Source: Rhynchobatus australiae (taxonomy: Eukaryota). From it: a stretch of 64,000 bases of DNA. Below are positions 16,271-55,497 of this stretch, piece by piece (the first letter of the stretch is position 1; each line of letters begins with the position of its first letter). Position numbers and translations under genes: made by a program. Where the stretch lies: assembly GCA_034780895.1 (NCBI GenBank), contig JAUZTB010000075.1:15837487-15901486 (forward strand). The letters are read 5' to 3'. Below the pieces are notes generated by a model, which saw only the letters and a program-made list of their open reading frames with translations, was not told the origin of the DNA and did no database searches.

Positions 16271-17620
16271 TATTGGTATTGGTTCATTATTGTCACTTGT
16301 ACTGAGGTACAGTGAAAATCTTGTCTTGCATACCGATCGTACAGGTCAATTCATTACACAGTGCAGTTACATTAAATTAGTAGAGTGCATTGAGGTACTG
16401 CAGGTATAAACAATAACAGGATGGAGTAAAGTGTCACATCCTCAGAGGAAGTGCAGTGCAGGTAGACAATAAGGTTCAAGGTCACAACAAGGTAGATTTT
16501 GTGATGTCAGAGTCCATTTCATCGTATAAGGAAACCGTTCAATAGTCTTATCACAGTGGGGTAGAAGTGGTCCTTGACCCTGGTGGTATGTGCCCTCAGA
16601 CTCCTGTATCTTCTGCCTGATGGGAGAGGAGGGAAGAGAGAATGGCCTGGGTGGGTGGGGTCTTTGCTTATGCTGGATACTTCACCAAGGCAGCAAGAGG
16701 TAAAGACATGGAGGGGAGGCTGGTTTCTGTGACACACTGTCCACAACTCTCTGCAGTTTCTTGCGGTCCTGGGCAGAGCAGTTGCCATACCAAGCTATGA
16801 TACATCCAGATAGGATGCTTTCTTTGGTGCATCGATAAAAGTTGGTGTGTGTCAAAAGGGACATACCAAATTTCTTTAGCCTCCTGAGGAAGTAGAGGCA
16901 CTGGTGTGTTTTCTTGGCTGTGGCATCTATGTGATTTGACCAGGACAGGCTACTAGTGATGTTCATTCCTAGAAATTTGAAGCTCTCAATCCTCTTGACC
17001 TTAGCACCGTTGATGTAGACAGGTGCATGTACACCTCCCTTATCTTGAAGTCAATGACCAGCTCTTTGTTTTGTTGACATTGAGGGAAAGCTTGTTGTCA
17101 TGACACCATGTCACTAATGTCATGGGTGGTGGTGGAGGCAGATATGTTAGACAGTTTCAAGAGGTTTTTGGATAGGCATATGGAGGAATGTGGGATATAG
17201 GGATATGCAGGAGGAAAGGGTTAGATAGTGTGAGGTGTGGTTTGATGGGCGGCACAACACGGTGGGCCAAAGGGCCTGTATTGTGCTGTATTGTTCTATG
17301 GTTCTATGGTTCTATAAGCTCTCTATCTTCTTCCTGTACCCTGACTCATCGTTATTTGAGATATGGCCTACTACAGTGGTATCATCTGCAAACTTGTAGA
17401 TGGAGTTAGAACAGAATCTGGCCACACAGTCATGAGCATATAGGGAGTAAAGTAGAGAGCTGAGGACACAGCCTTGTGGGGCACCAGTGTTGAGGATAAT
17501 TGTGCTGCAGGTATTGCTGCCTATCCTCACTGATTGCTGTCTGTTGGTCAGAAAGTCAAGGATCCAGTTACAGAGGGAGCTGTTGAGTCCCAGGTCTCGA
17601 AGTTTGGTGATAAGTCCTGG
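16271..17620 (-). mobile_element. Rex1/Babar element (RT plus 3' end) in the TGIF intron, with a nested CR1 tail at 17118-17314
   Basis: [29 protein letters not shown] and LYFLRRLKKFGMS..NFYRCT.ESILSGCI.AWYGNCSAQDRKKLQRVV. Confidence 0.95.
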
Positions 17621-27315: not shown

Positions 27316-30099
27316 ATTAATGACATAAATGGGCACCCATTGAAACTGCAGGATTACATGGAATACCAGTGGTGATGAGTTCTGAAACCAGAACAATATC
27401 ACCGGAGACCAATCTTCTGATTGAGGGAGTGAACCACTAACAAAGAAGATGATTCACTTTACATTTCTAAAAATATTTTCCTTTTTAAACATCAGATAAT
27501 ATAAATAAAATATTTTATACCTGTAAATACATCCCAAAGTACTTCACAAGAGCATAAACAAACAAATTTTGATGCCATGAAACATAAGGCCTAATGAGGT
27601 AAGCTCAATAAGGAAAACTACTGAAAAACCCAGAAGAACAGATGAATCTTGGAGCGCATGTCCATATATCTCTGAAGATATCAGGACTGGCAGATACGGT
27701 AGTTACGATGCCATACGGGTTATTTGCTTTTATGACTTGAGGTATTTGAATTTAACAGCAAGGCAGTTATGCTTGAACTGTGTAAAACACTAGTGAATTT
27801 GTAGCAAATCCAGGTCTACATTTCTGAACACCACATTACAGGACCATGGTCAGTTAACCCTGATGATTGCTGCTATAATGAGCTTGACTTTAAAAACATA
27901 CTGCACTGAATTGTGCTGACGCTGGCCAGCAGTTCTGAATTCAGCCATTTTTGAGTAAGTGAACCCTATTCTTGTATGCACCCACTCAAATCCAAAACTG
28001 AAAATTGAAATAAAACATCAGATGACTGAAATCTGAAATAAAAATAGAAAACACTGGAAATGTGCAGCAGGTCAGGCAGCATCTGTGGAAAGAGAAACAA
28101 TTAACGTTTCAAGTCCAAGACCCATTATCAAAGTTGGGAGAGAAAATCAGTTGGTTTTCAGTAGCATGGGGCTTACTGTCATTGGAATTGTCACCTCATC
28201 CTGTTGCTGGACTGCATGAATTGACTCACTCCTTATGACTGCCTTTTGAAACATTTTCCAAGTCCCTGCATTTATTCCCGTGAAAGCTCACTGAGAGATT
28301 TTGGAGTATTTCTTTCTCTTATCCTAATATGCTTGTTAATGTTTCAGCAACATTAATTTCCATTTAAGTAGCAACTTCAATACAGCAAATAGTGGCAGTG
28401 CGCTTCATGGGGATGTCATCAAACAAAAATTGAAACTGAACCACATGGAGAGTTTATGAGCAAACCCGAGCAGAGGTAACTTGAATGAGCAGTTTAGAGC
28501 AGGGGAGATGTCGAGGATAAATCAGTCTTTCAAATACTGAAAGGTTTGCGACACTAATTAGAATCTGTGGCATTTGGGAAAATCAGACAGGATCTAGAAA
28601 AGAGATGACATCCATCCTAAAGTTAACAAGGTTGATTTGAGGAAAGTGCATCTCCGTGCAAACTCATACTGACATATAAAATAATCACCAATAAATCCAA
28701 TCAGAAAAACTGCTTTAACAATGTCAGGTCTTTTTGTAGTTTCGAAAGAGTTGAAGCCAAACTGCCTACACAGACAACGAGAGGGTCAGATGTTTCAGTG
28801 AGGTTGACGGAGGGGCTCTCGCTGCAGTAGGTGGGCTCTGTGGGGCGGACGGTTGCTGATTACCCGGTTAACTCGGTGGCAGACATTACATCAAAAGCGA
28901 GGCAAAACGACCGAGCGGCTAATCTGTGTATTTGTTTTTCTTTGAAAAGATTCCAAATCAAAACTAGTGTACTTAACGCATTCAAACTAACGCTCCTTCG
29001 AAAGTTTGGGATTAGCGTGATCCATATTTTCCCCGAGTTTAAAAACTTTAAAAACGGCCGAAACCTGATATAAAAACGTGGGAGGTTGTGGGACTGGGGG
29101 CGGTGGAGTGAGGTAGGGATCTTCAAAGCAGGACCAATGTTTAATTTGTGACTTTATAGCTCCTTTTGGTTTGAGAAAACCCAATAACAACAATATTGGT
29201 GAAGAGATTTTTTCCCCTGCCTGGAATCTGGCTTCCAAGCATTCACACCACAACTCATCGGCAGACCTGTTTTGGAGGGGAAAACTATTTAAGAAGTTAC
29301 TGTGCTGTTTCACTCTGTGCAAAGTGCACGCATTGCAGCTGAGCTGGAAGAAAAGAGTGCCAGCGAACGGAGAGGTTCGCTGCCAAGTCCCGCTGTACCT
29401 TAAACGTCTTAAATAAACCCTTCCCGAGCTCTTACGGTTTCTAATTCCAAGGAAACCGCATGGTTCAGGGAGACAGGGCCGCAGGAAGCTTCTATCCTCC
29501 GCAGGTTCAGAAAGCAACCGAGCAAACCATTCCACTTTGTGACACGTCTCCCCTCGCCTGACTGTCCCACAGAGCATTAATCCGTTGGTTTATCCCGCCA
29601 CGAAATGGCAGGTGATTTCACTCCTTCGGGTGGGGCCTTTTTTGTTATTCTGTACGTGCAGACAACTAATTTTCATCGCGCCGTCTCCACAAGCTAGGTT
29701 GGGAGAAGCAGTATGACCCCGGGGTTTTGCTCGGTACCTGCACAGACAGAATGAGCAATCATTCTGGTCCAGTCAGTCCGACATGAAGAGCGCTGACCAA
29801 GTGCCCACGGAAGGTTCCTGTCACTCCTATCAACGCCGCTGCAACTCATTCTTAAAGACCTATTAGAAGCACCAACTTCGATGCTGTAAGTATCGGTTAA
29901 GGTAAATCGTTCCTATTCTCAGTGATGGAGACCGCAGTAAAGTCAGGTACTTTGCACAAATGGGTGGTAAAGCGACTCTATTTTCTGGCCTGATTCCTAG
30001 TTTTCAGCTCCTACCTTTTTTAAAAATTGAACTTTGGAATCATTAGAAGGGGGACATTCGGTGCATCACACCGGCGAAGAAAGCAACTTTAAACGAATC

Positions 30100-30420
30100 C
30101 CATTTGGAGTCAAACAGCACGGGAACAGGCCCTTCTGCCCATCATATGCATGCCAGCCATCAAGTACTACACTAGTCCCATTCACCAGCACTTGGTCCAT
30201 TGCTTTCCGTGCCTTGGCAATTCAAGTGCTCGTCCAGAGTTTTCTTTCAGTGTTGCATGAGTCCCTGCCTCCACCACCCGTTCAGCCAGTGCGTTCCAGA
30301 TCCCAACTACCTTTGGGTGAAAAAATATCTTCCTCAGATACCCTCTAAATACCTTATGCCTTGTCCTAAATCTATATTCTAAATCCTTTGCCCTGTGGGG
30401 AAATTCCTGCGGTGTACACA
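30100..30420 (-). mobile_element. CR1 3' fragment (related copy at about 20715-20980)
   Basis: FFHPKVVGIWNALAERVVEAGT, the CR1 ORF2 C-terminus. Confidence 0.85.
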
Positions 30421-31198
30421 CTCGATGCCCCTTACAATGTTCCCAGAACCCAGTCTAAACATTTCTTTTTGGCTGTACCGCAGGTGCTCAACAAGCTACT
30501 TTTTGGTGAGAGGTTTTGGCCTTTGACGAAGAGTTCCAGACCCCGGCCCTTCTTGGGTCAAAACAAATTCTCTCGAGCTCCACTTTATCATCAATTTGTC
30601 CTCCCACCACCCCCCACCCCCCAGTTTCTGGCTTTGTGATAAGGGGAATGAGTCTGTCCTATGGGGCCGACTCATAATTTTATACACTTACTGGTGGGAC
30701 ATGGCGGTCGTTGGCAAGAACAGCATTCATTGTGCATCCCCGACTATCACAAGCAGGGGTTAACTTTAAATTTGGTTCAACCGTATTATAGATTTGTTTT
30801 GATGACTGCGGTTTTAAAAATAGTTTCGTTGCTTTGTCTGGGTCTATTTAATAATGTTACAATTCATAATTCGTAAGGTCCTCCGGCTCCTCTTGTTAAA
30901 TGAAATTTGCATTGGCGACACGAATTCAAATTAGGACTTTATGTCACTCTTATTATTTCCGTTCTTCTGGAATAGAACTTTATGTTGGAACTCTTATCTG
31001 GGGAAAGCACGTCTCAGCACAGTGAAGGATGGATAGAATGGCTGGGCAGGCCGAGTGGTTTATTGGTAATCCTCTCCGATTCTTTAAATCACCGCAATTC
31101 GATAAAACAATGGAAACCACACGGAAACAAGTACTGTCTGAGAAAACAGAATCTGTACACGTGCATGCAATGTACAGAAAAAATAGGCGGGTCTTTCA

Positions 31199-31235
<37 letters not shown>
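31199..31235 (+). repeat. (CT)n microsatellite at a gap edge
   Basis: Direct read. Confidence 0.9.
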
Positions 31236-31861
31236 NNNNNNNNNNNNNNNNNNNNNNNNNNNNNNNNNNNNNNNNNNNNNNNNNNNNNNNNNNNNNNNNN
31301 NNNNNNNNNNNNNNNNNNNNNNNNNNNNNNNNNNNNNNNNNNNNNNNNNNNNNNNNNNNNNNNNNNNNNNNNNNNNNNNNNNNNNNNNNNNNNNNNNNGA
31401 ATGCCACACTATTGAACGTGCATTTTTATTTAAGTGAATGATGGCACTATTTTGATCAACACTCAAAATCCGAAGTTAACTGATTTACAGATTGTTTGGG
31501 GGAGTTTGCTGCTCGTAGAATGAGTTCCTTTCCCCACATTACAGCGGTTGAGTTCACTTCAAAAGGCCCAGGTTGACTGCAAGGTGTTCTGACAGGCGAA
31601 AGAAGTTATAATCTGACAATAAAAGGTGTTAAACTGTGGGCAGATATACAGACCTGCGTAAGAACCGCCGGCCACACACACATCTGCAAGCAAAGACGCA
31701 GCGCTCCCAGACGGCTTCTGTTGCAAAACTCATTTAAATGATACTGCCGCCCGTCCGAAATACAACCGGCTCGACTGGGAGACTCCGAAAGCGTTAAAGG
31801 AGATTCGGAGGCCGCCACCCCGCTTCTGATCAGAGGCGAATACGATTTGTTGTTAGTCTGG

Positions 31862-31893
31862 TGACGTAGGGATATTCATAATCTGGGTTTAAA
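31862..31893 (+). promoter_or_regulatory. Candidate ADRB3 core promoter: CRE-like TGACGT plus TATA-like TTTAAA
   Basis: TGACGTAG at 31862 and TTTAAA at 31888, about 135 nt upstream of the ATG in a CpG-enriched stretch. Confidence 0.4.
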
Positions 31894-31958
31894 CCTACAG
31901 AGTGAGTGACTGAGAAAGACACACGCACACTCGCACACACAGACAGCGACAGAAGAAG

Positions 31959-32045
31959 ATGATCTCAGCCTGGCGCCGGCGTCCCGAATGCGGAGGGCTT
32001 CAGCGGCAGTTTTTAACTTCAGCATGGAAGGGTTGCGAGGTGTGA
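31959..32045 (+). promoter_or_regulatory. Out-of-frame upstream ORF (28 aa) overlapping the receptor start codons
   Basis: aagATGatc at 31959 reads [28 protein letters not shown] and stops at TGA 32043-32045. Confidence 0.5.
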
Positions 32046-33220
32046 ATGGCACGGCGCAGGTCAATTCCCAGAACTCCAGTGAAGAGTTGTCATGGTCCAA
32101 GCAATGGGCTCTGGCCGCAGTCTTCACCGTGATCATCCTCATCATTGTGTTGGGCAACCTGTTGGTGATTCTGGCTATCGCCAAGAACCCACGGCTCCAG
32201 ACCCTCACCAATGTGTTCATTACCTCATTGGCGTGTGCAGACTTGATCATGGGCGTTTTCGTGGTTCCACTGGGGGCCACTATCGTGGTGACTAACAAGT
32301 GGCTCTTGGACTCTCCTTTCTGCGAGTTTTGGACCTCTGTGGATGTACTGTGCGTCACGGCCAGTATTGAGACCCTCTGCGTAATTGCCATCGACAGGTA
32401 CATCGCCATTACTTCACCCTTGCGATACATGAGCCTGTTGACCAAAGCGCGGGCCAGGGCGATTGTGTGTCTGGTCTGGGCCATCTCGGCCCTGATCTCC
32501 TTCTTGCCCATCATGAACCATTGGTGGGAGGACTCGGATCCTTTGGCCCAGCAGTGCTACAGGGAGCCCACCTGCTGTGACTTCGTGACCAATTGGCCTT
32601 ACGCCATCCTGTCCTCTACCATCTCCTTCTACATCCCGCTGGTGGTCATGATCCTCCTGTATTCCAAGGTCTTCAGCGAGGCCAAGAAGCAGGTGAAGAA
32701 GATGAAGAGGAACACACCGAGGATAGGCGACGGCCAGCAGCAAAACAAAGGCAACAAAAGGAGACCTTCTAAGCTGCTGGCTCTGAAAGATCACAAAGCC
32801 CTTAAGACGCTCGGGATCATCATGGGGACCTTTACGCTCTGTTGGTTGCCGTTTTTCCTGGCCAACATCGTGCAAGTCTTGTTCAGGAACCGGATTCCGA
32901 GGACACTGTTTCTCTTCTGCAACTGGCTGGGGTATGTGAATTCTGGCTTTAACCCCTTCATCTACTGCCGGAGCTCTGACTTCAGAAAAGCCTTCAAGGA
33001 GATCCTATGTCTCGGCAGGACAGTCGAAGAGCCCGTGCTCCAAGATTCCAACCGTTACTGCCCGTGTGCTTTCGGCTGGCCCAACTCCATCCGACCACCT
33101 CCCGGGGTCGAGGACCCCACCGAGAACTCCAGCAGCAGCCGGTCCAGTAGTGAGAAGGCGAACGCGACTTCCCACCAAGTGAACGGGGATGTCCGATGCA
33201 CTTTGGAATCGGTGCTATGA
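32024..33220 (+). CDS. ADRB3: Beta-adrenergic receptor, beta3/beta4C type, single coding exon, 398 aa (in-frame upstream ATG at 31988 would add 12 aa)
   Basis: Seven TM helices with [36 protein letters not shown] (Asp3.32, DRY), SSTISF (catechol serines), CWLPFF, NWLGY (Asn7.39) and [17 protein letters not shown] and [19 protein letters not shown] resemble avian beta4C/ADRB3. ATG 32024 has a strong Kozak context (agcATGG). Confidence 0.9.
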
Positions 33221-33331
33221 CCAGTGGGGAGTCTAAGCTCAAAGGGAAATGCCGCCCCCTTTGTTCTGTACCTCAATATCACAACCGTTGAGAAAGCAGC
33301 AAATCGTGGTCTATTCCCCTTTCCAATCAAC

Positions 33332-33337
33332 AATAAA
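33332..33337 (+). terminator. Candidate polyadenylation signal of the receptor gene (alternatives near 34028 and 34183)
   Basis: AATAAA about 110 nt after the stop codon. Confidence 0.3.
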
Positions 33338-35714
33338 CAAGGTCAGATTATTTACTGCTCCACTTTCCAGCCGTTACGTCTCCAACGCCTTGTAGCAGGA
33401 CCTTCACTGACAGATCAGTTGTTTTCGCGGGGGCTGTGGGGTGGTAATAACACAGTTTAGACATATAGTCTCTGAATTGTCCAGGACAGCACAGGGTAGG
33501 AGGGAAGAGTTCTCCTTAAAACAATGTAGACATTTCAGACAATTTATATCAACAGAGGTTTGTGGTGTGGGCGGCTGCACCGCAGGATTTCAGTTGCCCT
33601 TTGAAGACCAGCATAATGCCACAGGCTCCATCTATAATGTGTAATACGCCACATTCTGACCCCGGATGCGCCGGGTGGCGATAATCCAGGTTTCCTGAGA
33701 TTCTTTCTTTCGCCAGTCTGATTCTTACTTTCGTCAATATGATTGCACTTACGGAATGGACTGCAGGAGCGATTTTTTGCACAATTGTAAACAGTAAAAT
33801 AAGCACACATGTCAAATCTTAGTTCGTTCCTACGTGTGGAAAACCTACTGCCCCGAGGATCCCTAACAGCTCGGCTGAAATCAGACAGCAACCTTTCAGA
33901 TCTTATTTTTAAAATAACTCCCGTTAGCTGGGGCCGGTAGAGGGGACCTTTCGGACCTTTTTTTTTGTGTAGGGAGAGGGATTGGGGCCGAGTGGTGGGG
34001 ATCAAAATCTGAGATGGATTGAACTGAAATAAATTAACGATGGCTTGCTGCCGGAAGCTCGATCTCGACTTCTTTTTGTTCCAATTTTGTATTGTCACAG
34101 AGTTTGAATTTAAATGTTAAGTATTGGAAAAAGAGAGATAAAACAATATTATATGGGTAAGTGTGACATTTTCAACTGAAAAAATAAATTACAGAAAATG
34201 CCATGATATTCATTTTAAGATTTTTATAGTAATAGTACACTTACAATTCACATGTTATTAAACTTATTTTTACAATATGGCTTGTCTTGTACATTTGTCA
34301 CCTGTCTCGGAAATGTCCCAGGAGCACATTCCTTATTCTTTTGTGGGAGAGTGGGTGAATAGTGCTTCTGGAGATTTGAATTGCTCATTTTGGGGAAACT
34401 GAAATGAGGAGGGAATTGTACTGCGACTAAGTTATCAATGCCCGAATGGAACTGACCGAAACTCGAACTCAAAACCAGCGCGGCCGGGCGAAGGAAAGAG
34501 TAACACGGTTCACAGAATGAGAACTTATTATATAACAGTAGTCCATCAGCCCAAGCGTACCTAACTGTATAGTCTCCCTATACCCTTTATATCTCCTAAT
34601 TTCGAACAAAAAAACCCCTTCTCAATAATCCTTAAGTCGGCCACAATTATCGCGTGAAAAAAGGTATTCCAGCTTTCAATCGCATAATCTCCGGTTATTT
34701 TTCAAGAGATAATTGAAACTCAATTTTTCGTTGTAGTTAGTCCGGCAAGCAAAAAAAAACTTTCACGATTTATCACCTTCTAAAACCTTTCATTGCTCTG
34801 AAAGTCGCTCCGAGAACCAATCTCACCCTTCACCATTGCAGTGAAAACTCGCTTATTTTAGTTTCAATATATTTCCTTAACTAATCCATCGCACTAGACA
34901 TTACTCGAGTGGATTTCCTTCATAGCCTTTTCCTAACTTTTCAATAATCTGGTGAAACTATTAGAAATATATACAATTATTCCAATGTTTGGAATGCTCC
35001 AAATAATTTGAATCAGTTCAAAATCCTTCGTCCGTCTACGTAGAGACGGGAAGTTTGTACTTTAAGAATCACTGCTTTTGGGATCCGCAGCAGGGACATG
35101 AGACGGACTCGCTCAGTGTTAAAATTTTCAGCATCTACAATATTTTATTTTTTTAAATTTCACTGTCAATGTCCTTGTTTTTTTTTAAACGAACANNNNN
35201 NNNNNNNNNNNNNNNNNNNNNNNNNNNNNNNNNNNNNNNNNNNNNNNNNNNNNNNNNNNNNNNNNNNNNNNNNNNNNNNNNNNNNNNNNNNNNNNCCTTG
35301 TTTTTTTTTAAACGAACATTCTCTTGTAAAGCCTTTACCGTCCACATTTTCACCTCAAGATATATGCACCTATTTCTCATTTCTCCCTCGATTCGTGCGT
35401 CCAGTCACGTCTCTTTAAACATACCACGGCGCATTTCTCTGTTTTTAATTGCATTTGCTGCTTTCCTGGCATTGCATTCACCTTTTTTTTCTGTCTTTCT
35501 TCAGCCATTTATACGTTTTCTCAAATGGCCTCTCGCACGGTAGATGTAACAATTTTCGGTATCATTCTCACGTTTACATCCAAATCATTTTCATAATATT
35601 GTTTTGTACTCCATAACAATTTAAAAGCTCCGAACAAGCCTCATCAACATAACGTATATTTTTCTCTTCTTATGTTACCCAGCTTACACTGAAATACTAT
35701 TGGTTGCAAATGTT

Positions 35715-36570
35715 CTGGAGTCATAGTCACTGTGTGGCACAGCACAGAGACAGACCCTTCAGCCCACCACGTCCATGCCAACCATTCAATGCCAATCAAT
35801 AATAATTCTATTCGGACCATTTACTTGGTCTGCAGCAGAATAGATTCAACTGCTTGTCCAAATGCTTCTTAAATGTTGCGGGAGTCTCTGCCTCCACCAC
35901 CTTCTCAGGCACTGAATTCCAGATTGCAACTCCGGCGAAGTGAAAAAGTTTTTTTTCATTAATCCCCTCTAAGCCTCTTATTCTTCATCTTAAACATATT
36001 CCGTCTGGTCTTAGACATCACGGTCATGGGGGAAAGTTTCTTACCATCCACCGTATCCATTCACCTCATAATTTTGTATGTTTTTATCAGGTTTCCCCTC
36101 AGACTTCTATACTCAAAGGGAAACATCCAGTTTCTCCCCAGAACTGAAGCACCTCATTCCTGGAGATTCCCTCTGCATTCTATCCAGTGCAATCAGAGTC
36201 CTTCTGATTGTGAGGTGAACAGAACTTCACATAACATTCCAGCTGTGGCCGACCCAATGTTTTATAATGTTGTACCCTGACTTCCTGCTCCTTTATGTAC
36301 CAGCGAATGAAGGCATGCATCCCGTTTACCTTCTTTACCATCTTATCTACCTGTGCTGCCACCTTCAGGTATCCTCAGACTTGTACAGCAAGGAACCTTT
36401 GTTCCTCAATACTCTCTATAAGGCCCAATCATTCATAGTATATGTCCTATCTTATTAGAAACCCCCCACACCACTTCTCTCCCAAAATGCATTAAATCAG
36501 ACCTACCCAATTTTCCATTAATGCTGAACAAGGGATCCATCCCAAGCAAAGTCTCTGCAATTGATAAGCA
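35715..36570 (-). mobile_element. CR1 ORF2 3' portion, decayed
   Basis: AAQVDKMVKK..GM.AFI...YKTLGRPQLE.YV.F.SPH plus the CR1 tail. Confidence 0.9.
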
Positions 36571-37960: not shown

Positions 37961-39251
37961 CTGCATAGTGATTATTGTGATAGTTTTCACTGCCTTTTCT
38001 GTGATTTTCTCAAAAGAATTGTAAGTCACAACTGACCCTTTCAAGTTGATTGCCCCCAACTGGAGAAGCGTTTTTCCAAAGATCCCACCTTTCAACAGCT
38101 ATGTCCATGTTTTTCCATGTGTAAAAGAATGCAAGCTCAATTTCCTGTTAAGCACTGCCAATAGCCGACGCTATCCAAGAAAACTTGGCCCTAAGAATTT
38201 CACCCACTGCCAAGCTAATAAGACTTGGCTTACAATTTCCTGGCATACCACGTGCCCTCTTTCTAAACAAGGAGTAATTTTAGCCAATGGATAATCTCCG
38301 GGCATAAGTCCATTTCCAGAACATTCTGGTTTGTATTTCCACCCACTCCCCAGAGGATGTAACCACAACTTGCTCTGAACAACAAACTTCATAAGTGAAG
38401 ATTCACTATAAACATTACTAACTTTTACACAGCATTTAGAGAAATGGCCAGATCATCCATTTTTGTGGTTACATTTGTTGATGGTATTTCATTCAGATAT
38501 AATTAAAAATGAGGCCTGATACAGTCCAACACATGTATACATAGCAACTTTGTTTATGACAAACATCCAAGGATATCACAGATCTCAGTAGCATCATCAA
38601 ACAACATATGACATTAATTCACATGAGTACATGAGGTAGGTTTTAAGTGATCTATAGAACTTGGGGTCTTGACAAAAGAACACTGGAAATTAGGAGCAGG
38701 AGTAGGCCATCTGACCCCTGTGTATTGCCCTGAATTTTAATATGAACACAGCTGATCTGCCTGAGACCTCAACTTCTCTCCATTACTGGTTACCTGTGGT
38801 CCTCAATGCCAGATTTTTCACCTACTTCTTCTTTAACTACCTCTAATGCCCCCACAGCCCTCCAAGGCAGAGGATTCCAGAGATTCACCAGCCTCTGTGT
38901 GAGCCAGCTGAAGAATGGTCACCCACAGTGGAGTAATTAAATTCAGGGCTGATCAAGAGGCCAGGAAAGGAAGACTCTGGAGATCTCGGTTTGCTGAGGA
39001 CTCAAGGAAATTATGGGGACAGGTTGGCAGGGACAGATTTGAATCCATGGTGAGAATATAAAAATTAAGATGTTACACAACTGGACACTCATGAAGGTCA
39101 GCAAATAGAGTGATTGCTAAACTGAAAGACAAAGCACCAAGAATGTGATAGNNNNNNNNNNNNNNNNNNNNNNNNNNNNNNNNNNNNNNNNNNNNNNNNN
39201 NNNNNNNNNNNNNNNNNNNNNNNNNNNNNNNNNNNNNNNNNNNNNNNNNNN

Positions 39252-39605
39252 ATTCCGGCTTCTGCCCTCTTCCTTTCCAGTCCTGATGAAGGGTCTCGGC
39301 CCGAAACGTCGACTGTTTATCTCCCTCCATGGATACTGCCCGATCTGCTGAGTTCCAGCACTTTGTGTGAGACACAAGAGACTGCAGATGCTGGAATCTG
39401 GAGCAACAAACAATCTGCTGGAGGAACTCAGCAGGTCAGGCAGCGTCTGCTGGGGGAAAAGAATTGTTGACATTTTGGGTCAAAACCCTACGTCAGGACT
39501 CAAGCACCTGATGCAGGGTTTCAACTCGAAATGTTGACAATCCCTTCCCTCCCCCACCAGATGCTGCTTAACCCACTGAGTTCCTCCAGCAGACTGTTTG
39601 ATGCT
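39252..39605. mobile_element. Penelope-like terminal repeat (plus, 39252-39368) followed by a palindromic derivative (39370-39605)
   Basis: ctgctgagttccagca terminus. The arms 39400-39498 and 39507-39605 are reverse complements of each other. Confidence 0.8.
39278..39315 (+). ncRNA. Minimal type I hammerhead ribozyme motif in a Penelope-like element terminal repeat
   Basis: CAGTC-CTGATGA-A-GGGT(CTCG)GCCC-GAAAC-GTC-GACTG: perfect 5-bp stem I, intact core, stem II, and a palindromic ACGT stem III with a GUC cleavage triplet. Confidence 0.75.
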
Positions 39606-40039
39606 ACATTAAAACAAGGCTCCACTACATTCCATTTGATTTCTGGGATGAGGGGTTATCCCATGAGGAAAGATTAAGCAGAATGGACAACGCTCCTTTT
39701 CATAGAATAAGACCATCTCATTGAGACATATGACTCAGAGGAGGTTGAAGCTCAACAGGGAAGATGTTGAGAGAATACTTTGCAGAGTTTTGTATTGGAG
39801 GGCAAAGTCTCAGGATAATAGAACAACAGCACGGATAACCTGATAAACAGAAATCTGATAAATAATCCACCCACTGTTTCAATAGTTTCATTTATTTTAA
39901 ACAGTGCCACATCTGCAATGTAAAAGGCGGGGATGTCAAGCAATGATTGAATCCTAAAGGCAGCAGAAGGGGACATTCCCACTCCATACCAGTTCTAAGG
40001 AGGGAGATTGTGCCTGCTTCTCTGCCCTGAATTGATGGA

Positions 40040-44439: not shown

Positions 44440-45182
44440 TAGATGGGAGTGGGTAAAAAAAGGGAGGCAGAGAAACCACAGTGTGGATTTCCACAGCAAT
44501 TCTTGGAGAGCATCAGACTCTGGTGAGTGAAGGGGCTTTGATGAGGAGGGTGTGGACTTTGGTAAGACAGTGTCACAGGTACCGGTAAGATAGACAGTGG
44601 ATATTTTCACTGTTGTTCATATGAGGAGTGTGAACAGAGTGGATTACAATTTAAGGGGCCCTTTCGGAATTAAAATTATAATGGGTGAGCTCAGAGCAGT
44701 GTGCTGCATAGCTTGCAGCATGCATGAATTCCAACATGCTCCTTAGAGTCTGGATAATTACATCTGTGGGAGGTGCCTCCGGTCTGGCTGGATTGAGTGC
44801 CGGGTTTTGGCAGCGTGGTGGATCTGCAAAGCTGTGGGTAACATGTTCTTCAGAGGTGGTCACACCAGAGCTTAAGGTAAGGCAGTCAAAGATGGAATGG
44901 GTGACGACCAGGCAGAGGAAGGATTGAGGGGTGACCTTACAGAGGTATATAAAATCATGGCTGCCACAGAAACCAAGTGCATCTCACTCCAAAATCATTT
45001 CTCTGTGTTAGAAAGTGGTGGGTGTGAATGTATGTCTGAGGAGTCCACCTAGAGCCATGATCATGGGACTGTGGGTGTCTTAGCTACACAGGAGGGGAGG
45101 ACCAACAGTTGATGGGTAATAGTGGTAGGAGACTTGAAAGTGAAGGGAACAGACAGACAAATCTGTGGCCATAGATATGAGT
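44440..45182 (+). mobile_element. CR1 5' region: ORF1 with N-terminal CxxC and start of the SGNH esterase domain, decayed
   Basis: MGELRAVCCIACSMHE, SEVVTP..EWVTTRQ, ISLQNHFSVL and IVVGDLKVKGTDRQICG (GDS-like block). Confidence 0.75.
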
Positions 45183-45262
45183 NNNNNNNNNNNNNNNNNN
45201 NNNNNNNNNNNNNNNNNNNNNNNNNNNNNNNNNNNNNNNNNNNNNNNNNNNNNNNNNNNNNN

Positions 45263-45314
<52 letters not shown>

Positions 45315-45845
45315 CACATTGAAAGACTGACAGACAAACAGTCGGAGAAGGAGGAGAGATAGAGGCAGACAGAGAGTGACAGTGGATACTGAGAGACAGA
45401 GTGAGGTAGAGAGAGAAGAGACAGGAGCCAGGTTAAGAGAGGTGGAGATAGAGACAAGCGGCACACAGACAGAGTGGGAAGTGAATGGTACATAGATAAA
45501 AAGGAGAGAGGAACAGAAAAAGGGGAGAGATAGACAGAAGACAGAGAGAGAGAGAGAGAGTATAGACTGACAGAAGGGGAAATAAATATGGGCAGAGAGA
45601 CAGACAGAGGGGTGAGGGGAGGCAGATGTCCATTCAGAAAGAGAAGGAGAGAGGCAGAGGGATAGAATGGCAGACACAGAGTGGAATGAGAGACAGACTG
45701 ACCACAGAGAGTACAGTGAGAAATAGAAATAATAGAGAGAGAGAGTAACAGAGTGTGAGAGTCAGAGGCAGAGGGAAAAGGGAGGGAGAAAGAGACTAGG
45801 CAGGCAGAGTGGATACTGACAGACACGCAGATGGGGGAGGGGGGT

Positions 45846-45884
<39 letters not shown>

Positions 45885-45950
45885 GTTATGGAGTCATTGG
45901 CAGTGAGAGAGGGAGATTAAAGCAAGTGACAGACAAATGAGAAAGACAGA
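45263..45950 (+). repeat. (AG)n microsatellite and GA-rich low-complexity tract
   Basis: Direct read. Confidence 0.9.
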
Positions 45951-47760
45951 AATACAGTGCAAGGTGTTTTATTTTGGTAAGTTAAACCAGGGCAGACTTG
46001 CACAGTAAATGGCAGGGCCCTGGAGAGACTTATGGGTACATAGTTTCCTGAAAGTGATGACAGAGNNNNNNNNNNNGGTAGAGAGGGAGGTGAAGAAGGT
46101 ATTTGACATGCTTGCCTTCATTGGTCAGGGCATTGATACAGGATGTGGGACATCATATTGCAACTGCACAAGTCATTGCTGAGACCACACTTGGAGGATC
46201 ATGCAGAGTTCTAGTCACCAAAGTTTAGGAAGGATATCATTAAACTGGAAAGGATACAGAAAAAAATCATGAGGTTGTTACCAGGACTGGAGGGCTTGAG
46301 GTATAGGAAGAGGCTGGATACACTGCAACTTTTTTCTCCTGGAGCATCGGAGGCTAAGGGGTGACCTTATAGAAGATTATAAAATCATGCCCTAAATCAT
46401 GAAATCACCCTGAAATTCTGGAAGATGGGAGGGTGGCTGTTATGTAACATAACATTGTTAAATAACATTGTACTGTTATTTAATAAGGGCAGCAAAGGCA
46501 AGCCAGGGAACCACAGGCCGGTGAGCCTGACATCAGTGGTGGGTAAGTTACTGGAGGGGATTCTGAGGGACAGGATCAACCAGCTTTGGGATAAAGGTCT
46601 GATTAGCAATAGTAGCACAGATTTACGCATAGAAAATTATGTCTCCCAAATCTGTTAGAGTTTTTTGAAGAGGACTGATGAGAACAGAGCAATGGACATT
46701 GTTTATATGGAGTTTAGCAAGGCCTTTGCATAACAGGCTAGTCTGGATGTTTGGATTACATGGGATCCCGGAAGAGCCAGCTAATTGGTAATGTAATTGG
46801 CTTGATAGAAGAAACAGATGATGATGGTGAAAAGCAGTTTTTCAGACAGGAGGCCTGTGACCAGTGGTGTGCCACAGAGATCAGTGTTGAGCACATTGTT
46901 ATTTGTTATTTATATAAACAGTTTTGATGAGAATGTATCAGGCACGGTTAGTAAATTTGCAGATGACACTAAAATAGGTGGTATAGTGGACAGTGAAGAA
47001 GGTTATCAAAAATTACAGGGGGATCTTGATCAGCTAGGTAAGTGGGCCGAGGAATGACAAATGGTGCTCAGTTCAGATAAATGCAAAGTCTTACATTTTG
47101 GGATGTCAAATCAGAGTAGGACTTTTACAGTAGGGCCCCAGGGAGTGTTGTAGAGAAGAGGGGCCTAGGAGTACAAGTACATAGTTCCCTGAAAGTGGCA
47201 TAATAGGTAGATAGGGTGGTGAAGAAAATGTTTGGCATGCTGACTCTGAGTATAGGAGTGAGTCTTTATATTGCAGCTGTACAATATATTGGTGAGGCTG
47301 TACTTGGAGTATTGTGTACAGTTTTGGTTACCCTGTTATAAAAAAGATGTCATTAAGATGGACTTTATTTTTTGGAGAGCAGGAGACTGAGGGGTGACCT
47401 TACGGAGGTGTATAAAATGATGAAGGGCATAGATAGGGTGAACACATACCGTCTTTTTCCCAGAGAAGGAGAATCAAAAACTAGAGGGCATAGATTTAAG
47501 GGGAAAGGTTTAAAAGAGACTGGAGGGAGTCTTTTCACACAGAGGGTGGTGAGTACATGAAACAAACTGCCAGAGGAAGCTGTAGAGGCGGAACAATTAC
47601 GTTTAAAAGACACTTGGACAGGTATGTGGATAGGGTTCAGGGGTGTATGGGCCAAATTCAGGCAAATGGGACTAACTCGGACAGACACCTTGGTCAGCAT
47701 GGACGGGTTGGACCAAAAGGCCTGCCTTCCCTGCTGTATTCCTCTCTGACTCTCTGAAAG
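45950..47760 (+). mobile_element. Two CR1 ORF2 fragments (about 45950-46390 and 46470-47760)
   Basis: KGSKGKPGNHRPVSLTSVVGKLLE, VTSGVPQRSVL, KFADDTKIGG, RRLRGDLTEVYKMM and the 3' tail. Confidence 0.95.
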
Positions 47761-47951
47761 CCAGCAAGNNNNNNNNNNNNNNNNNNNNNNNNNNNNNNNN
47801 NNNNNNNNNNNNNNNNNNNNNNNNNNNNNNNNNNNNNNNNNNNNNNNNNNNNNNNNNNNNNNNNNNNNNNNNNNNNNNNNNNNNNNNNNNNNNNNNNNNN
47901 NNNNNNNNNNNNNNNNNNNNNNNNNNNNNNNNNNNNNNNNNNNNNNNNNNN

Positions 47952-48299
47952 CGCAGACTGGAGAGTGTGGGTGTGAGACAGAGAGATTGGATACTGAAAC
48001 ACAGATATAGAAACACAGAACAGTGAGACCGACAACTAAACAAAGAGGAGAGAGACAGACAAACTGAGGGACAGAGAGAGGAATGTGGCAGATAGACAGA
48101 GAGGGGCGTGTGTGTGAGAGAGAGAGAGAGACAGAGTGAGAGAAGGAGAGAGAAAGAACTATAGACAAGAGGGAAGACTCCCAGAGAGAGAGAGAGGATA
48201 GAAGGAGAGAGGGAGACCCAGAGGGGTGGGAGAGTGGGAGAAAGAGAGCTGGACAGAGTGGGGAGAGAGACAGACAGAGAGTGGGTAGTATGAGAAGGC

Positions 48300-48341
<42 letters not shown>

Positions 48342-51300
48342 GAGACAGTTACAGACAGAAAGTGTGACGAGGATAGACAGATGGAAAGGGAACGGTGGAG
48401 AGACAGGCAGGGACAGATGGATAGAGGGGGAGAAATAAAGGAGAGAAATAGAGAGAGAGGAGTTGAGGAGAGTGGGAAAGGCAGACAAAGAGGAGAGAGT
48501 GACAGGTGGAGGGAGAAGGCAGACTGAGAGGCAGAGAGACAGATAGAGAGTGAGAGTGAGTGAGACAGAGAGAGAGAGAGCAGTACAGACAAATAAGCAG
48601 ACGGAATGTATATTGAGAGAGGCAAACAAGCTGAAATGGAAGAGGGAACGAGAGAGACAGGCAGAGAGGGAGAAGTAAAATGCAGACAGACTGAATGTGT
48701 GCGAGATAGCAATCCAGACAGAGGCAGTCAGAGAGGAAAGGAAGAGATAGACAGACAGAGGTGAGGGAGAGATTCATGCAGACAGAGGGACAGAGGATAG
48801 AATCAGGCAGACAGTTTGTAGGGAGACAAACAGAGGGATAGAAGGGGAGAGAGGCAGCCAGAGAGACAAGGGGTGAGAGGGCCAGACTGACAGGGGAATG
48901 AGAGGCAGGCAGACAGACAGTGGAGAGGCAAACAAAGGAGAGAGACACACCAACAGACAGGCACCCAGACATATGGAAATGGAGGGGAGTGAGGCAGACA
49001 GGAGAGGGGAGAGTGAGAGGAAGCCAAGTGCAATGAGAGAAGTCAGGCAGAGAGGGAAAAGAGGGAATGAAACAGACATGAAAGAGAGAAAAAGATAGAG
49101 AAGGGAGAGTTGGAAGCAGACACATGGAGGGTGGAGAGATAGACAGTCAGACAGAGGGACAGGGGAGAGACAGTCAGAATGACAGGGCAAGAGAGTGGCA
49201 GACCAATAGAGGGAAGGGACAGTCAGGCAGACAGAGACTGAGGGTGTGAGAGAGAGGTAGAACTCCAACAAACAGGCAGATGGGGAGTGAAGGGAGAGAG
49301 AGTCAGATAGACAGAGGCTGGAGAGTCAGACAGACAGAAAATGAAGTGAGGGGCAGGCAGCCTGAGTGGTGAGAGACTGATAGATGGAAAGGGAGGCAAG
49401 AGAGAGAATGAGGCAGAGTGATAGAGAAGCAGAGTTGGGGGGGGTGAAAAAGAGTGAACGAGAGAGTTAAATGCGAGAGGCAGACAGAGACATTCAGAGA
49501 TGAGAGCAAGTGGCAGACAGACAGAAATTGGAGACCCAGAGAAACAGATGGACAGAAAATGTGAGAGGGGACAGAAAGTCAGACAGATAGGGAGGGAGAG
49601 AAGGAGGAGGAGCAAGATGGACAGGCAGTGAGGGAGGGATGAAAGGCAGAGTCAGTGAGCTCGAAATAGTGTAATGCAGACAGACAAGCAGATAGAGAGA
49701 GAAAGGAAAGAGAGGCACAGAGGTGAGGGAGAGAGTGAGACAGAGGTGAAGAGTCAGGATGGAGGAGGATAGAGAGTCAGACTGACAGAGGGCAGTGATA
49801 CAAATGGAGAGACTGGGAGAGGGACAGAAAGAGAGATGGAAGAGGAGAGAGGGTGGTGAGGGACTGGTAGGGAGGGGAGTGAGGGTAGCAGAAAGAGAGG
49901 GAAGAGCTAGACTGAGAGGAGAGACAAAGAAACAGACAGAATATGTGAGGGAGAAGCAGGCAAACATAGATGGATGGGGGGGTGGAGAGAGACAGGATGT
50001 GGCAGACAGATAAACAGACAAACGGACAGAGCAGGAGAAAGAGAGAGAGAAGCAGAGAGGGACGCTGACAGTCGGGAGAGAGAGGCAGGCAGAGTCAGAG
50101 TGGATACAGAAACAGAGCATGAAGGGAGGGTGAGATAGACAGACAGGAGACAGACACACAGAGGAGATAGACAGTGAAGTAGACAACAAGGGAGACAAAG
50201 AGAGAAGAGAGAGCAAGATGGATAGACAGGCAGAGAGGGTGGAGTGAAAGATAGACAGAACAAATNNNNNNNNNNNNNNNNNNNNNNNNNNNNNNNNNNN
50301 NNNNNNNNNNNNNNNNNNNNNNNNNNNNNNNNNNNNNNNNNNNNNNNNNNNNNNNNNNNNNNNNNNNNNNNNNNNNNNNNNNNNNNNNNNNNNNNNNNNN
50401 NNNNNNNNNNNNNNNNNNNNNNNNNNNNNNNNNNNNNNNNNNNNNNNNNNNNNNNNNNNNNNNNNNNNNNNNNNNNNNNNNNNNNNNNNNNNNNNNNNNN
50501 NNNNNNNNNNNNNNNNNNNNNNNNNNNNNNNNNNNNNNNNNNNNNNNNNNNNNNNNNNNNNNNNNAAAGGGGGAGACAGGCAGAAAGATGGACACAAAGG
50601 GAGGGGAAAAAGAGACAGACTGAGGCAGGCAGATACCCATGCAAAGAGACAGAAGGGGAGAAAGAGAGAGAGATAGACACAGGAAGATGGTCAGGCAGAT
50701 GGTGATAGACAGACAGGTGGACAAGGAGGCTGAGAGAAAAAGAGAGAGAGAGAGGTGGAGGGGAGTGTGAGAGGCCAATGGAGAGCAGAGAGTGAGAGGC
50801 AGACAGACAGAGCAAGAGGGAGAGAGAAGGAGAAAGAAAGATAGGACAACAGAGTGTAAACTGAGAGACTGACAGAGAGACAGAAGTGGAAGAGGGAGTG
50901 AGCTGGTCAGTCAGACAGAGAGAGAGGGAGGAGTGAAATGCAGACAGGTTGAGTGAATGAGAGAGATAGATTGGCAGACTGAGGGGGAATGGGGTGAGAC
51001 AGACAGAGATGAAGGAAAGAGTCAGACAGATGGAGGGTAGAGAGGCAAGCTGAGGGGAGATAAACTTGGGGGAAAGACAGGCAGACAGACACAAACAAGG
51101 AAACAGATGCAGGAGAAAGAGAGAGAAATGTAAGGGACAGGCAGATAGACTGAGAGGGAAGAGAAGGAGGCATACAAACAGAGGTTAGACGTAGACAAAC
51201 AGGGGAGGGAGAAAGTCAGACATGGAGGAGAAGGAGATAGTCAGATAGCAGAGATTGGAGAGTCAGACAGAGGGTAGAAAGTCAGACATAGTGCAGAGAT

Positions 51301-52180
51301 GCAGGCTGAGAGAAGCTGAAAGGAAAGAGCACGGCAGACAGACAGACAGGGAAGGGAAAGTGACACACACAGAGCACAGAGAGTCAGACAGAAGTAGGAA
51401 CAGGCAATGATGGAGTGACAGAGAGGGACAGACTTAAAAAGGAGTGATGGGCAGACAGACAGAGACAGACTGAAGGGAGAGTCAGAGAAACAGAAGATAG
51501 AAAGTGTGAGGGGGAGCAACAGACAGACAGATGGACAGAAGGGGGAGAGAAAGGGAAAGAGAGAAAATGAGGCAGAAAGGTATACAGGCAGTCAGACAGG
51601 GAGGGGAGAACCTGAGGGGCCATAGGACAGACAGATAAAGAGGGAGTGGTGAAAAGCAAACAGAGAGAGCGAGACAGAGATAAGCTGTCAGAATGAGAGA
51701 ATCAGACAGAGGATGGAGAGAAAAACTGAGAGGGACAAACAGACAGACCCACAGGCAGACAGACAGACAGCCTGGAAGAGGCAAAAACAAAGATACAGAA
51801 GGGAGAGAGTCAGTCAGAAAGAGGTGAGCAGGACGGATAGAGAGACAGAGTGGAAGACAGAGCAGACAGACATCAGACAGAGAGGGGAAAGAGTGACGGA
51901 CAGACATTGCGACGAGAGACAGGCAGAGGAAAGCAATGGATAGAGGCAGGTAGGCGTGCAAACAGATGGACATAGAACGAGGAAGTGAGATCGACAGATA
52001 AGGGTGGAGGGAGAGAGGGTGGGGGGCAGGGGGAAGGGGAGGGAGAGAGACAGATGTACCGGCAGACAGAGTGCATATTGAAAGACAGACAGCCAGGGAA
52101 GCGAGAGAGGCAGACAGGTAGTTAGAATGGACACTGGGAGACAAGGTAGAGAGACAGGCAGACGGATAGACAGAGAGGAT
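47952..52180 (+). repeat. About 4.2 kb GA/GACA-rich low-complexity tract (contains a gap)
   Basis: The plus strand is overwhelmingly purine. This explains the long Leu/Ser/Pro/Cys ORFs on the minus strand. Confidence 0.95.
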
Positions 52181-52510: not shown

Positions 52511-55497
52511 CTGAGAAAGAGAGCCATAATAATCACAATTTTAAGGGCAATTCACGGAGAAATCCCATTGGGGTTCCAGTCTGGTCTCCTACTGATGACA
52601 CCTGTTCTACCCCTCCCTCCTTCAATTAATTATTCTTTTTTGCTGGAATTACGTTGGGACTAGACCGAGCTGTTGTTGTCCCCGTGTTACAAGATGACAT
52701 TGTATACGAAGGAAGTGATTTGCCAAGTTTTCATAAAGGAATATTGGTAAATCTGTGACAAGCGAACTCTCCGCCAGTTTGTCGAACGCCGGGTCGCCCT
52801 TTCGCTACTTTCACACTAGGATATCGGAGCTGCCCCGACTGCATCCTTCCTCCGCTCCCGCATTTTCTAATGCCAGATCAAAAATTGTTCTCGAACACTT
52901 CCCTCTGCCTCCTGATATGCCCCTCTCTCATACCTCTGCTGCAGTGGCTCCAGTGGGCGGACTTCTGCAGTGATTCTATTGTGTTCAACCAACGTACACT
53001 GGAGCCCAGTCCCATTTTCAACTGTGCTCTGTGATAAAATCCCGAGGTTAATCCCTTCACTCCGGTGTGTTCTCCCATTGGTCCATTGACACGATATCAC
53101 TACCAGTCTTCTCTCGGAATCACCACCTCAATACCTTATTTGTTTGCTGTCTTTTCCACTTTTCCATGTCTATTAGCTCGCACTTTCAGCGACGAGGCGG
53201 GTGATTCCGCTCATCTGCCTGCCGAGATGTGTCTCCGAGCCTCAACCGGGACTCAATGAATGGCTGAAACACAGCTTCTGTGGAGAAAAGCTGACGGTCA
53301 TCATTTCGGGTTCTGACCGCCTGCTTTTCTCCACGGATGCTGCCTGGCCTGCTGAATTCCTCCAGCATCATCGTGGTATTCATCTAGATTCCAGCATCTA
53401 CCGTCCTTTGTTCCTCTTTTTTAATGGCTTAGGGGTTTTTATGTCAGATTTCCAGCAGGAGCAATGTTTCGCTTTTCCTCCAGAGGGAATTCAGGGGAAA
53501 GGACGTCGAAAATAAGTATCACTTCAATTCTAGCCCGTCGCACTAGTGGAACTGTGGTGGAAGCCAAGTGATCATTAAACTGGTTGCACAGCAGTTTACT
53601 GTTAATATTAATATTAAATATTAATATTAAATGTCGATAACTGTCGATTAACTGGCATTAATTAACCGTTAGTTAATATTATATGTCGATACACTTTACG
53701 GGAATAGAAGGGAGATACGCGTAGGTCACACCTGAGTCAGCTGTCTTCACAATATGTACAAACTGATAACGGGCGCCGAAAATAAAAGCGGCATTTTAAC
53801 ATTTCTGGATGACACCTTCTCGGAGCAATAAGCAACACCGAGGAACACTGTGTTGAGAAAGCACAAATACATTAATATCACCGCAGAATTCTCTTCTAAT
53901 TGACAAGGAGGAACATAAGAAAAGCAAACTAGACCAGTCAGTTCCCCCACATCCACTTCACACCCCACCCCACCCCCCCTCCCCCCACCCGTCTGCTCCG
54001 TCGTNNNNNNNNNNNNNNNNNNNNNNNNNNNNNNNNNNNNNNNNNNNNNNNNNNNNNNNNNNNNNNNNNNNNNNNNNNNNNNNNNNNNNNNNNNNNNNNN
54101 NNNNAGTAAGACCGTGGCTGGTCATTTTCTTCAGCACCACTTCCCTGAATTAAACGTGTATCTCCCGATTGCTATAATATTCAACAGTATATGGATCGCC
54201 GATATTTACAAACATGTGGCAAAGAACCAGCAAGATCTCGAGATGCAGACAGTCAAATATCTTTTAACAGTGAGGCAGATTAATAAAGTCGTGAAGTATA
54301 GCGACTGGATTCGAGTTCAGAAAGGACAGAATAGAAGTGCATTAAAATTAAATTTTAAACAGCCAGATGACATTCCATGCAGGATTTGGGGGGGGGAAAA
54401 AAGTACAGGGCACGACTATATCTTTCACTCAGTTAATGCAATGAAGCACGTTTCAACATTTCCCGAGTTTGCAGAAAATAATATGCAGTTATGATGTATG
54501 GGCAAGAAACGCAAGCAGTGTTTCAGAGACAAATCCCATTTCTCATCAAAAGACGCAGCCGAGTTGTGTTTATTATGTGTAACTGCTTCCTTAAACTTAC
54601 TGGTTCAAAGGGCCATTACCCTCAATCCCCGTCGGCTATTCTCTATACGTGGACGGAAGCAAACGGCCGATCTTCACACCCAAGAATCCAACAGCCGGAG
54701 CGCAGCCACGTGTGCCTCAAGACATCGGACCTTGACAGAAATCAGGCTGGGGGCAAAATATTGCTTCATAACAATGATCAGCTGTTTTAAACAGTTTCAC
54801 CGAAGACGCTGACGCTTAAAACTACTTGAAATTTATCAACATATATTGTTCCTGTTATTAAAAGCTATATTTTTCCCAAGTCTGCAACCCGAAGAAACAA
54901 TGAGACCTCCCGACATCGCCAAGCCTATCGAGTCAAATCTGTATAAGAAGCGATTTCCACACCTGAAGGAATACCAGCAGATCGGGCTGCACTGTTGAAC
55001 TCACCATGGAGTCAGGTTCTGGCATCTCACACTCGGGAATGCCGGTTAACTTCCCTGAGAAAATTTGGACAGAGGCGGTTCCATTAGGACGGCTGGGTGC
55101 AGCCAGGAAGACTTGGCCCAACTGTTTTCCACGAGGCCATTTCCTTATCTTTCCAACACTTATCGAAGGTCAGAGTGAGAACTGAAAGTGAGCCAGTTAT
55201 GTGGTCTACAACGCAACTTCTATTCGCCTTCCTCACATTAACCGTAGGCTCAGTTCTGAGGATCCTCCGAGGTAGTGAATCCACTCTCCCGAGTCTCAGT
55301 AGCACAGAACAACTTTTTCTCTGAAACTGAAATATCCCGGCATCACTGTGCGCACCTTCACTCCAAATAATAGTAATCCTAACTTGATCAAATACTCCCC
55401 GGNNNNNNNNNNNNNNNNNNNNNNNNNNNNNNNNNNNNNNNNNNNNNNNNNNNNNNNNNNNNNNNNNNNNNNNNNNNNNNNNNNNNNNNNNNNNNNN

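What the first reader, a model, noticed from the sequence alone, without database searches (positions are those of the whole stretch)
39278..39315. Apparently intact minimal hammerhead ribozyme
Seen: stem I CAGUC/GACUG, core CUGAUGA plus one extra A, stem II GGGU-CUCG-GCCC, GAAAC, and GUC with predicted cleavage after 39310. Stem III is the loopless palindrome ACGU, so it can form only between two copies. The CpGs are undecayed, suggesting a young copy. Established: Penelope-like terminal repeats carry minimal type I hammerheads thought to cleave as dimers. Inference: this is an active or recently active family, and a partner copy may lie in the adjacent gap (39152-39251).
Basis: partly seen in the sequence, partly recalled or inferred. 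Interest (0 to 1): 0.7.

Follow-up and report, generated by a model that had tools for sequence, protein, structure and literature searches.

The report
Orphan Penelope transposon hammerhead ribozyme copy
This is a real, sequence-perfect copy of the tiny self-cutting RNA motif that Penelope-like jumping genes are known to carry, left at the end of an old, broken insertion; it likely has no partner to cut with here, so it is an ordinary example rather than a sign of an active family.

Summary
The 38-nt motif is exactly as described. It is the minimal type I hammerhead in the terminal repeat of a Neptune-type Penelope-like retroelement (PLE): longer copies carry RT and GIY-YIG remnants upstream. 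This is a known feature (PMC4209133), and the scan reported it three times elsewhere in this genome.

The genome holds at least 141 exact copies among very many decayed pieces. 'Young, active family' is not supported. This copy is about 5% diverged in its flanks, exact copies are at most 97% alike, no intact ORF was seen in 50 protein-selected loci, and the core decays about as fast as the flanks. A partner in the gap is unlikely: 13 of 30 exact copies have the same upstream gap, and none of 120 copies has an intact same-strand partner within 1-1.5 kb. One compensatory stem I change separates an older family, so the fold was once selected.

Side result, also noted by the scan in other genomes: copy 5' ends pile up at the start of stem I (0 of 90 at the cut site), often after an extra G, which suggests uncleaved, capped RNA as template. 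Cleavage was not tested.

The parts
39278..39315 (+). Minimal type I hammerhead motif, identical to the family's majority sequence; predicted cut between 39310 and 39311
   Evidence: Sequence; majority sequence of 21 copies chosen without regard to the motif
39252..39369 (+). Visible 3' end of a Neptune-type PLE insertion: pyrimidine-rich end of the 3' UTR, hammerhead, and the short (tail-less) 3' end, 54 nt past the motif
   Evidence: HMM hit from model position 34; longer copies link this end to GIY-YIG and RT remnants upstream
39152..39251 (.). Assembly gap, 100 N; likely holds the 5'-truncated C-rich element body and possibly an inverted arm
   Evidence: 13 of 30 exact copies have a gap within 150 nt upstream against 45 of 703 background points; a contig identical to the left flank ends exactly at 39151; content not seen
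39369..39500 (-). Left, long-tailed arm of an older head-to-head pair of PLE ends from another subfamily; hammerhead core broken
   Evidence: HMM hit model 62-195; about 72% identical to the finding
39507..39608 (+). Right, short arm of that pair; the nearest same-strand hammerhead remnant, core broken (CUGAUGC, GAAAU), so not a plausible partner
   Evidence: HMM hit model 65-165; fails the relaxed core pattern

Best explanation
The motif is an unmutated copy of the hammerhead carried in the terminal repeat of a Neptune-type Penelope-like retroelement, left in an old 5'-truncated insertion, and it is likely inert at this locus. Shown: its sequence, its link to RT and GIY-YIG remnants in longer copies, its age class, and neutral-looking decay across copies. 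Inferred from published work on PLE hammerheads: in tandem read-through transcripts of a master element, two motifs swap strands, ACGU pairs with ACGU as a shared 4-bp stem III, and each core cuts the other after GUC, slowly and probably with help from the element's protein. Inferred for this copy: alone it folds into a rod in which the core (GAUG) pairs with CGUC, it has no intact same-strand partner nearby, and it is intact because about one in a hundred or fewer of many thousands of copies escapes mutation over 38 nt, not because it is used.
For: 141 exact and 1165 core-intact copies; 116 related pieces in 660 kb of random DNA, only 3 with a relaxed intact core. RT motifs, a CX4CxxC linker and a GIY-YIG domain with internal CxxC lie upstream on the same strand. 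Non-CpG change: motif 40/624 against flank 101/1383, p=0.51; core 36/608 against flank 67/948, p=0.40. This copy's flank 3/63; exact copies median 4.7%, unselected copies mean 7.4%. Pairs of exact copies: best 96.8%, median 89% over 252 pairs. No intact same-strand core within 1.5 kb of 30 exact copies or 1 kb of 90 tail-selected copies. Monomer rod -12.7 kcal/mol; double hammerhead -19.9 against -25.4 for two rods. PMC4209133: a single minimal motif does not cleave, dimers cleave weakly. PMC11167929: a lizard PLE hammerhead cleaved only with the protein and was not needed for insertion in vitro.
Against: Core positions were somewhat better kept than flanks in one sample (9/231 against 101/1383, p=0.066), not repeated in the larger sample. 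The 141 exact copies are roughly 3-4 times my rough neutral estimate. This copy keeps 2 of 6 possible flank CpGs against 8 of 122 in unselected copies, so it is younger or better protected than average. A gapped short-read-type assembly hides young full-length copies: C42:42405485 and 42407719 are two exact motifs around a 2.2-kb gap and could be a partial tandem. Folding energies omit Mg2+ and tertiary contacts. Pfam found no RT or GIY-YIG match on five decayed fragments.
Confidence: 0.85

Rival explanations
1. Young copy of a still or recently active family, with a tandem partner or full element in the gap.
For: Motif identical to the family majority sequence with 4 of 4 CpGs, seen in 1 of 21 unselected copies; flank divergence below the family mean. 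The gap is unresolved. One real tandem of exact motifs 1.03 kb apart (C83) and one gap-spanning pair (C42) exist.
Against: 4.8% flank divergence and a deletion; best match over 95 nt or more to 30 exact copies is 95%; no intact ORF in 50 loci; 0 of 140 long-tail copies share sequence beyond the tail; upstream gaps are typical of the family.
Confidence: 0.1
2. Host-domesticated ribozyme that ends or processes a transcript, for example read-through from the rhodopsin-family GPCR reading frame 6 kb upstream on the same strand.
For: 7tm_1 reading frame at 31910-33217 (+), E 6.5e-71; the motif is on the same strand and intact.
Against: It needs a partner to form stem III; the predicted monomer fold sequesters the core; no excess conservation across copies; nothing shows the motif at the orthologous site in relatives.
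Confidence: 0.03
3. Unit of a non-LTR retrozyme (tandem, non-coding hammerhead repeat that makes circular RNA).
For: Type I hammerhead; such repeats are reported in a cartilaginous fish and derived from PLE terminal repeats (bioRxiv 10.64898/2026.07.22.740005, parts 1-2 read).
Against: No tandem array here; longer copies lead into RT and endonuclease remnants.
Confidence: 0.02

Closest known systems
Minimal hammerheads (min-HHR) of metazoan PLE terminal repeats (Cervera and de la Pena 2014, PMC4209133; parts 1-2 of 4 read)
   Same: Type I, stem I 4-5 bp, one base between positions 9 and 10.1, G10.1-C11.1, palindromic 15.2-16.2 without loop 3, thousands of mostly single copies, PLE-linked
   Different: Stem II is only 4 bp here (7-8 bp in the Schistosoma examples); the read parts name no shark or ray family; figures and supplements not seen
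Neptune/Nematis-type EN+ PLE insertion architecture (PMC8557442, PMC3846280; passages read)
   Same: C-terminal GIY-YIG with CxxC between GIY and YIG, CX2-5CxxC linker, heavy 5' truncation, inverted 5'-truncated arm, optional 30-40-bp tail at one end, assembly gaps at insertions
   Different: No full-length or intact copy recovered; clade not tested by a tree
PAc Poseidon element of Anolis (PMC11167929; main text part 2 and passages read)
   Same: Two 3' end classes matching two internal RT start sites; no sign that the cleaved RNA is the template
   Different: Different clade; in PAc the ORF starts at stem II, here the open frame's first ATG lies downstream of the cut site; protein-assisted cleavage not tested here
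Rfam hammerhead families
   Same: Core CUGAnGA...GAAA and NUH site
   Different: No Rfam match even at E<=10, as expected for a motif without stem III

Membership tests
PLE minimal hammerhead | Intact core CUGANGA / GAAA / NUH with type I topology | tested here: met
PLE minimal hammerhead | Extra base between 9 and 10.1, G10.1-C11.1, palindromic 15.2-16.2 | tested here: met
   A39290; G39291-C39302; ACGU 39306-09; features as listed in PMC4209133
PLE minimal hammerhead | Covariation in the stems | tested here: met
   Inner stem I pair C-G 14, U-A 24, U-G 6, other 6 of 50 rows. This is one event between two families, and the 29 old-family rows were picked by a pattern; none seen within the family
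PLE minimal hammerhead | Lies in the terminal repeat of a PLE | tested here: met
   Same-strand hammerhead-plus-tail about 300 nt after the GIY-YIG stop in longer copies; for this copy by homology only, its body is in the gap
PLE minimal hammerhead | Self-cleavage as a dimer | not testable with these tools
   No assay; energy model does not favour the double hammerhead
Neptune/Nematis-type EN+ PLE | RT followed by CX2-5CxxC linker and GIY-YIG with CCHH cysteines | tested here: met
   Motifs read in translations of decayed copies; Pfam gave no hit on five fragments
Neptune/Nematis-type EN+ PLE | RT phylogeny places it in the Neptune clade | not tested
   No reference RT set held
Active PLE | Intact ORF in a partial tandem; near-identical copies | tested here: not met
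   a gapped assembly can hide such copies
Non-LTR retrozyme | Two or more consecutive tandem units each with a hammerhead | tested here: not met
   gap content unknown
Rfam hammerhead families | Covariance-model match | tested here: not met

The most novel reading that the evidence does not exclude
The family's fossil copies record how vertebrate Neptune-type PLEs replicate: the RNA starts, capped, at the first bases of hammerhead stem I (CCA+1GTCC), is copied uncleaved from two internal start sites, one on each nicked DNA strand, and the two short cDNAs join head to head. The hammerhead then marks the RNA's 5' edge and never defines the end of an inserted copy, and subfamilies that lost core bases (CUGAUGC) still spread.
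Probability: 0.4. Interest if true: 0.45.

Novelty: new member of a known kind. Interest (0 to 1): 0.17.

Why it matters
As a single motif it matters little: PLE hammerheads are described as numbering thousands per vertebrate genome. What is useful is the family as a natural data set on an open point, the role of PLE hammerheads. Copy ends avoid the cut site and pile up at the ribozyme's 5' edge, which agrees with the in vitro result that uncleaved RNA is the insertion template, and gives a sharp prediction for CAGE or 5' RACE.

Tried and rejected
Rfam scans found only miRNA-type hairpin matches far below threshold. Pfam found nothing on five decayed RT/EN fragments. The first degenerate pattern had a miscounted spacer and found 6 copies (redone). 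Gap closure from public contigs failed: no listed piece bridges it; one run's contig is identical to the left flank and stops at 39151 (it may be this DNA's source), another's runs 1751 letters on without a listed match right of the gap. No RNA holder listed. The head-to-head pairs as a MITE amplified from one master was rejected because their junctions all differ. The close exact pair on C87 looks like one copy duplicated across a 100-N gap. The idea that cleaved RNA is the template found no support: 0 of 90 breakpoints at model 92-97, apart from two copies cut by gaps at 91 and 95. Lunse et al. 2017 (dimer cleavage of PLE hammerheads) is not held; only its title and a review's summary were seen. 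The protein atlas did not hold the fragment.

Full report
Observation. Stem III is the loopless palindrome ACGU. The genome holds 141 exact copies against 0 for the reversed control and 1165 with the core intact; both are lower bounds. Rfam has no hammerhead match here.

What it belongs to. The 30 fetched exact copies share a pyrimidine-rich upstream region and a downstream tail. The longest lead upstream into a GIY-YIG endonuclease with CxxC between the GIY-like and YIG-like motifs, a CX4CxxC linker and a reverse transcriptase, all on the same strand. By the features given in PMC8557442 (passages) this is a Neptune/Nematis-type Penelope-like element; no tree was built, and Pfam did not recognise five decayed fragments. 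The closest named protein relatives are from two rays at 62-72% identity, so the host is probably a cartilaginous fish (inference). Related ends are very common: 116 HMM hits in 660 kb of random DNA, 10 in this window. The window copy shows only the last 118 nt, 39252-39369, and abuts an older head-to-head pair of related ends with broken cores (39369-39608).

Is it young? Against the majority sequence of 21 copies chosen by their protein remnants, its non-CpG flank differs at 3 of 63 sites and has a 3-nt deletion. Those copies average 7.4% and exact-motif copies have a median of 4.7%. Exact-motif copies are at best 96.8% alike, median 89% over 252 pairs, and the window copy's best match over 95 nt or more is 95%. 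No intact ORF appeared in 50 loci picked by RT or endonuclease similarity, and none of 140 long-tailed copies shares sequence beyond the tail. The copy is younger or better preserved than average, with 4 of 4 motif CpGs (1 of 21 unselected copies) and 2 of 6 possible flank CpGs, but it is not recent. Exact copies also cluster near contig ends (21 of 27), so CpG retention is partly regional. A gapped assembly can hide young full-length copies; one gap-spanning pair on C42 could be such a case.

Is the motif selected in genomic copies? Non-CpG change is 6.4% in the motif against 7.3% in flanks (p=0.51), and 3.9% in the core (p=0.066) in 21 copies. In 56 tail-selected copies that span it, the core changes at 5.9% against 7.1% (p=0.40), and 4 of 56 keep a whole core. 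With a per-copy chance of 0.27% of staying exact and roughly 20,000 copies (my estimate from 2631 exact 35-nt tails), some tens of exact copies are expected. The 141 seen are a few times more, which age spread and regional CpG retention could cover.

Covariation. An older family (about 23% diverged; 188 hits) has U-A at the inner stem I pair where this family has C-G, and GUU for GUC at the cut site. By eye in the first 100 listed hits: old family U-A 71, U-G 22, C-G 1, C-A 6; young family C-G 72, C-A 23, U-A 3, U-G 2. The formal count on 50 rows gives 87% paired cells and 18 two-sided changes, but this is one event between two lineages and the old-family rows were pattern-selected. Within the family, variation is mostly CpG decay plus U-G/U-A in stem II.

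The gap. 13 of 30 exact copies have a gap within 150 nt upstream against 6% of background points, and 33 of 90 tail-selected copies within 200 nt. That is where the C-rich element body lies. Upstream neighbours within 1 kb are inverted in 27 of 90 and same-strand in 7 of 90; no same-strand neighbour of 120 copies has an intact core. Public contigs did not bridge the gap.

How it likely works. PMC4209133 (parts 1-2 read) reports that single minimal motifs do not cleave and dimers cleave weakly. PMC11167929 reports that a lizard PLE hammerhead cleaves only with the element's protein and is not needed for insertion in vitro. Here the monomer folds into a rod with the core paired (-12.7 kcal/mol, 73% of the ensemble), and the strand-swapped double hammerhead (-19.9) is less stable than two rods (-25.4) in the energy model. 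The motif is likely competent in a tandem construct and inert at this orphan site; neither is shown.

What the family's ends suggest. 3' ends fall in two classes about 35-40 nt apart, the known tail. In adjacent head-to-head pairs 29 of 38 have one long and one short arm and none has two long arms; at looser distance 4 of 27 are long/long. No 5' breakpoint among 90 copies lies at the cut site, while 10 of 45 lie at the first bases of stem I, often after a G. This fits a capped RNA starting at CCA+1GTCC and copied uncleaved; a splice acceptor (the same bases read pyrimidine tract plus CAG) or microhomology are alternatives. The inverted arm and one-sided tail are published (PMC3846280, PMC8557442, passages). 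I did not find the 5'-edge pile-up in the passages read (searches; supplements not seen), but the scan noted it in three other genomes (read after my own test). Those notes are not independent support.

Verdict. Real, a new member of a known kind, already seen three times in this genome by the scan. Interest 0.17.

Noticed in passing
window 31910-33217 (+), in a CpG-rich stretch about 30000-36000: 436-codon stop-free frame of a rhodopsin-family GPCR (7tm_1, E 6.5e-71); CpG observed/expected 0.55-0.9 there against about 0.1-0.3 around the finding.
   Followed up: no
window 61806-62726 (-): Second 7tm_1 frame, 307 codons, next to a gap (E 4.8e-20).
   Followed up: no
window 39369-39608: Older head-to-head pair of PLE ends abutting the finding's 3' end with one shared base; contigs of four other runs run from inside it into the right flank, so it predates those lineages' split.
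   Followed up: partly
38 head-to-head pairs in fetched loci (a few are the same locus twice): Junctions all differ; 29 have one long-tailed and one short arm, none has two long arms. With a looser 1-kb distance 4 of 27 are long/long.
   Followed up: yes
L209-L298, L299-L328: 5' ends pile up at the start of stem I (10 of 45 breakpoints at model 61-64, p 3e-5). The base before AGTCC is G 49, T 33, A 18 in the first 100 of 683 non-C hits (counted by eye); all 10 G cases among 30 loci have unrelated upstream DNA. Cap-derived G, a splice acceptor and microhomology remain alternatives.
   Followed up: yes
G000 contigs C1, C2, C64, C76, C87: 21 of 27 listed exact copies lie in the outer 15% at either contig end; not compared formally with the family's overall distribution, which also leans that way.
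   Followed up: partly
L198 (G000:C83:7432800-7433866): Two exact motifs on one strand 1.03 kb apart without an ORF between them, in CpG-rich DNA: the best candidate for a dimer-capable locus.
   Followed up: partly
random loci L087-L166 and flanks: Subfamilies whose majority sequence departs from the core: CUGAUGC (A9 to C) and, in many members of another, CAGAUGA.
   Followed up: partly
window 10722-10808 and 53271-53343: Near-perfect hairpins giving sub-threshold miRNA family matches; the second overlaps a PLE-end piece at 53319-53403.
   Followed up: no
window about 45000-52000: Long purine-rich (GA-type) low-complexity stretch with strong strand skew.
   Followed up: no
window 3967-4311 (+), 17315-17623 (-), 16685-17050 (-), 13518-13802 (-): Other retroelement remnants: RVT_1 and ALKBH8_N matches.
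   Followed up: no
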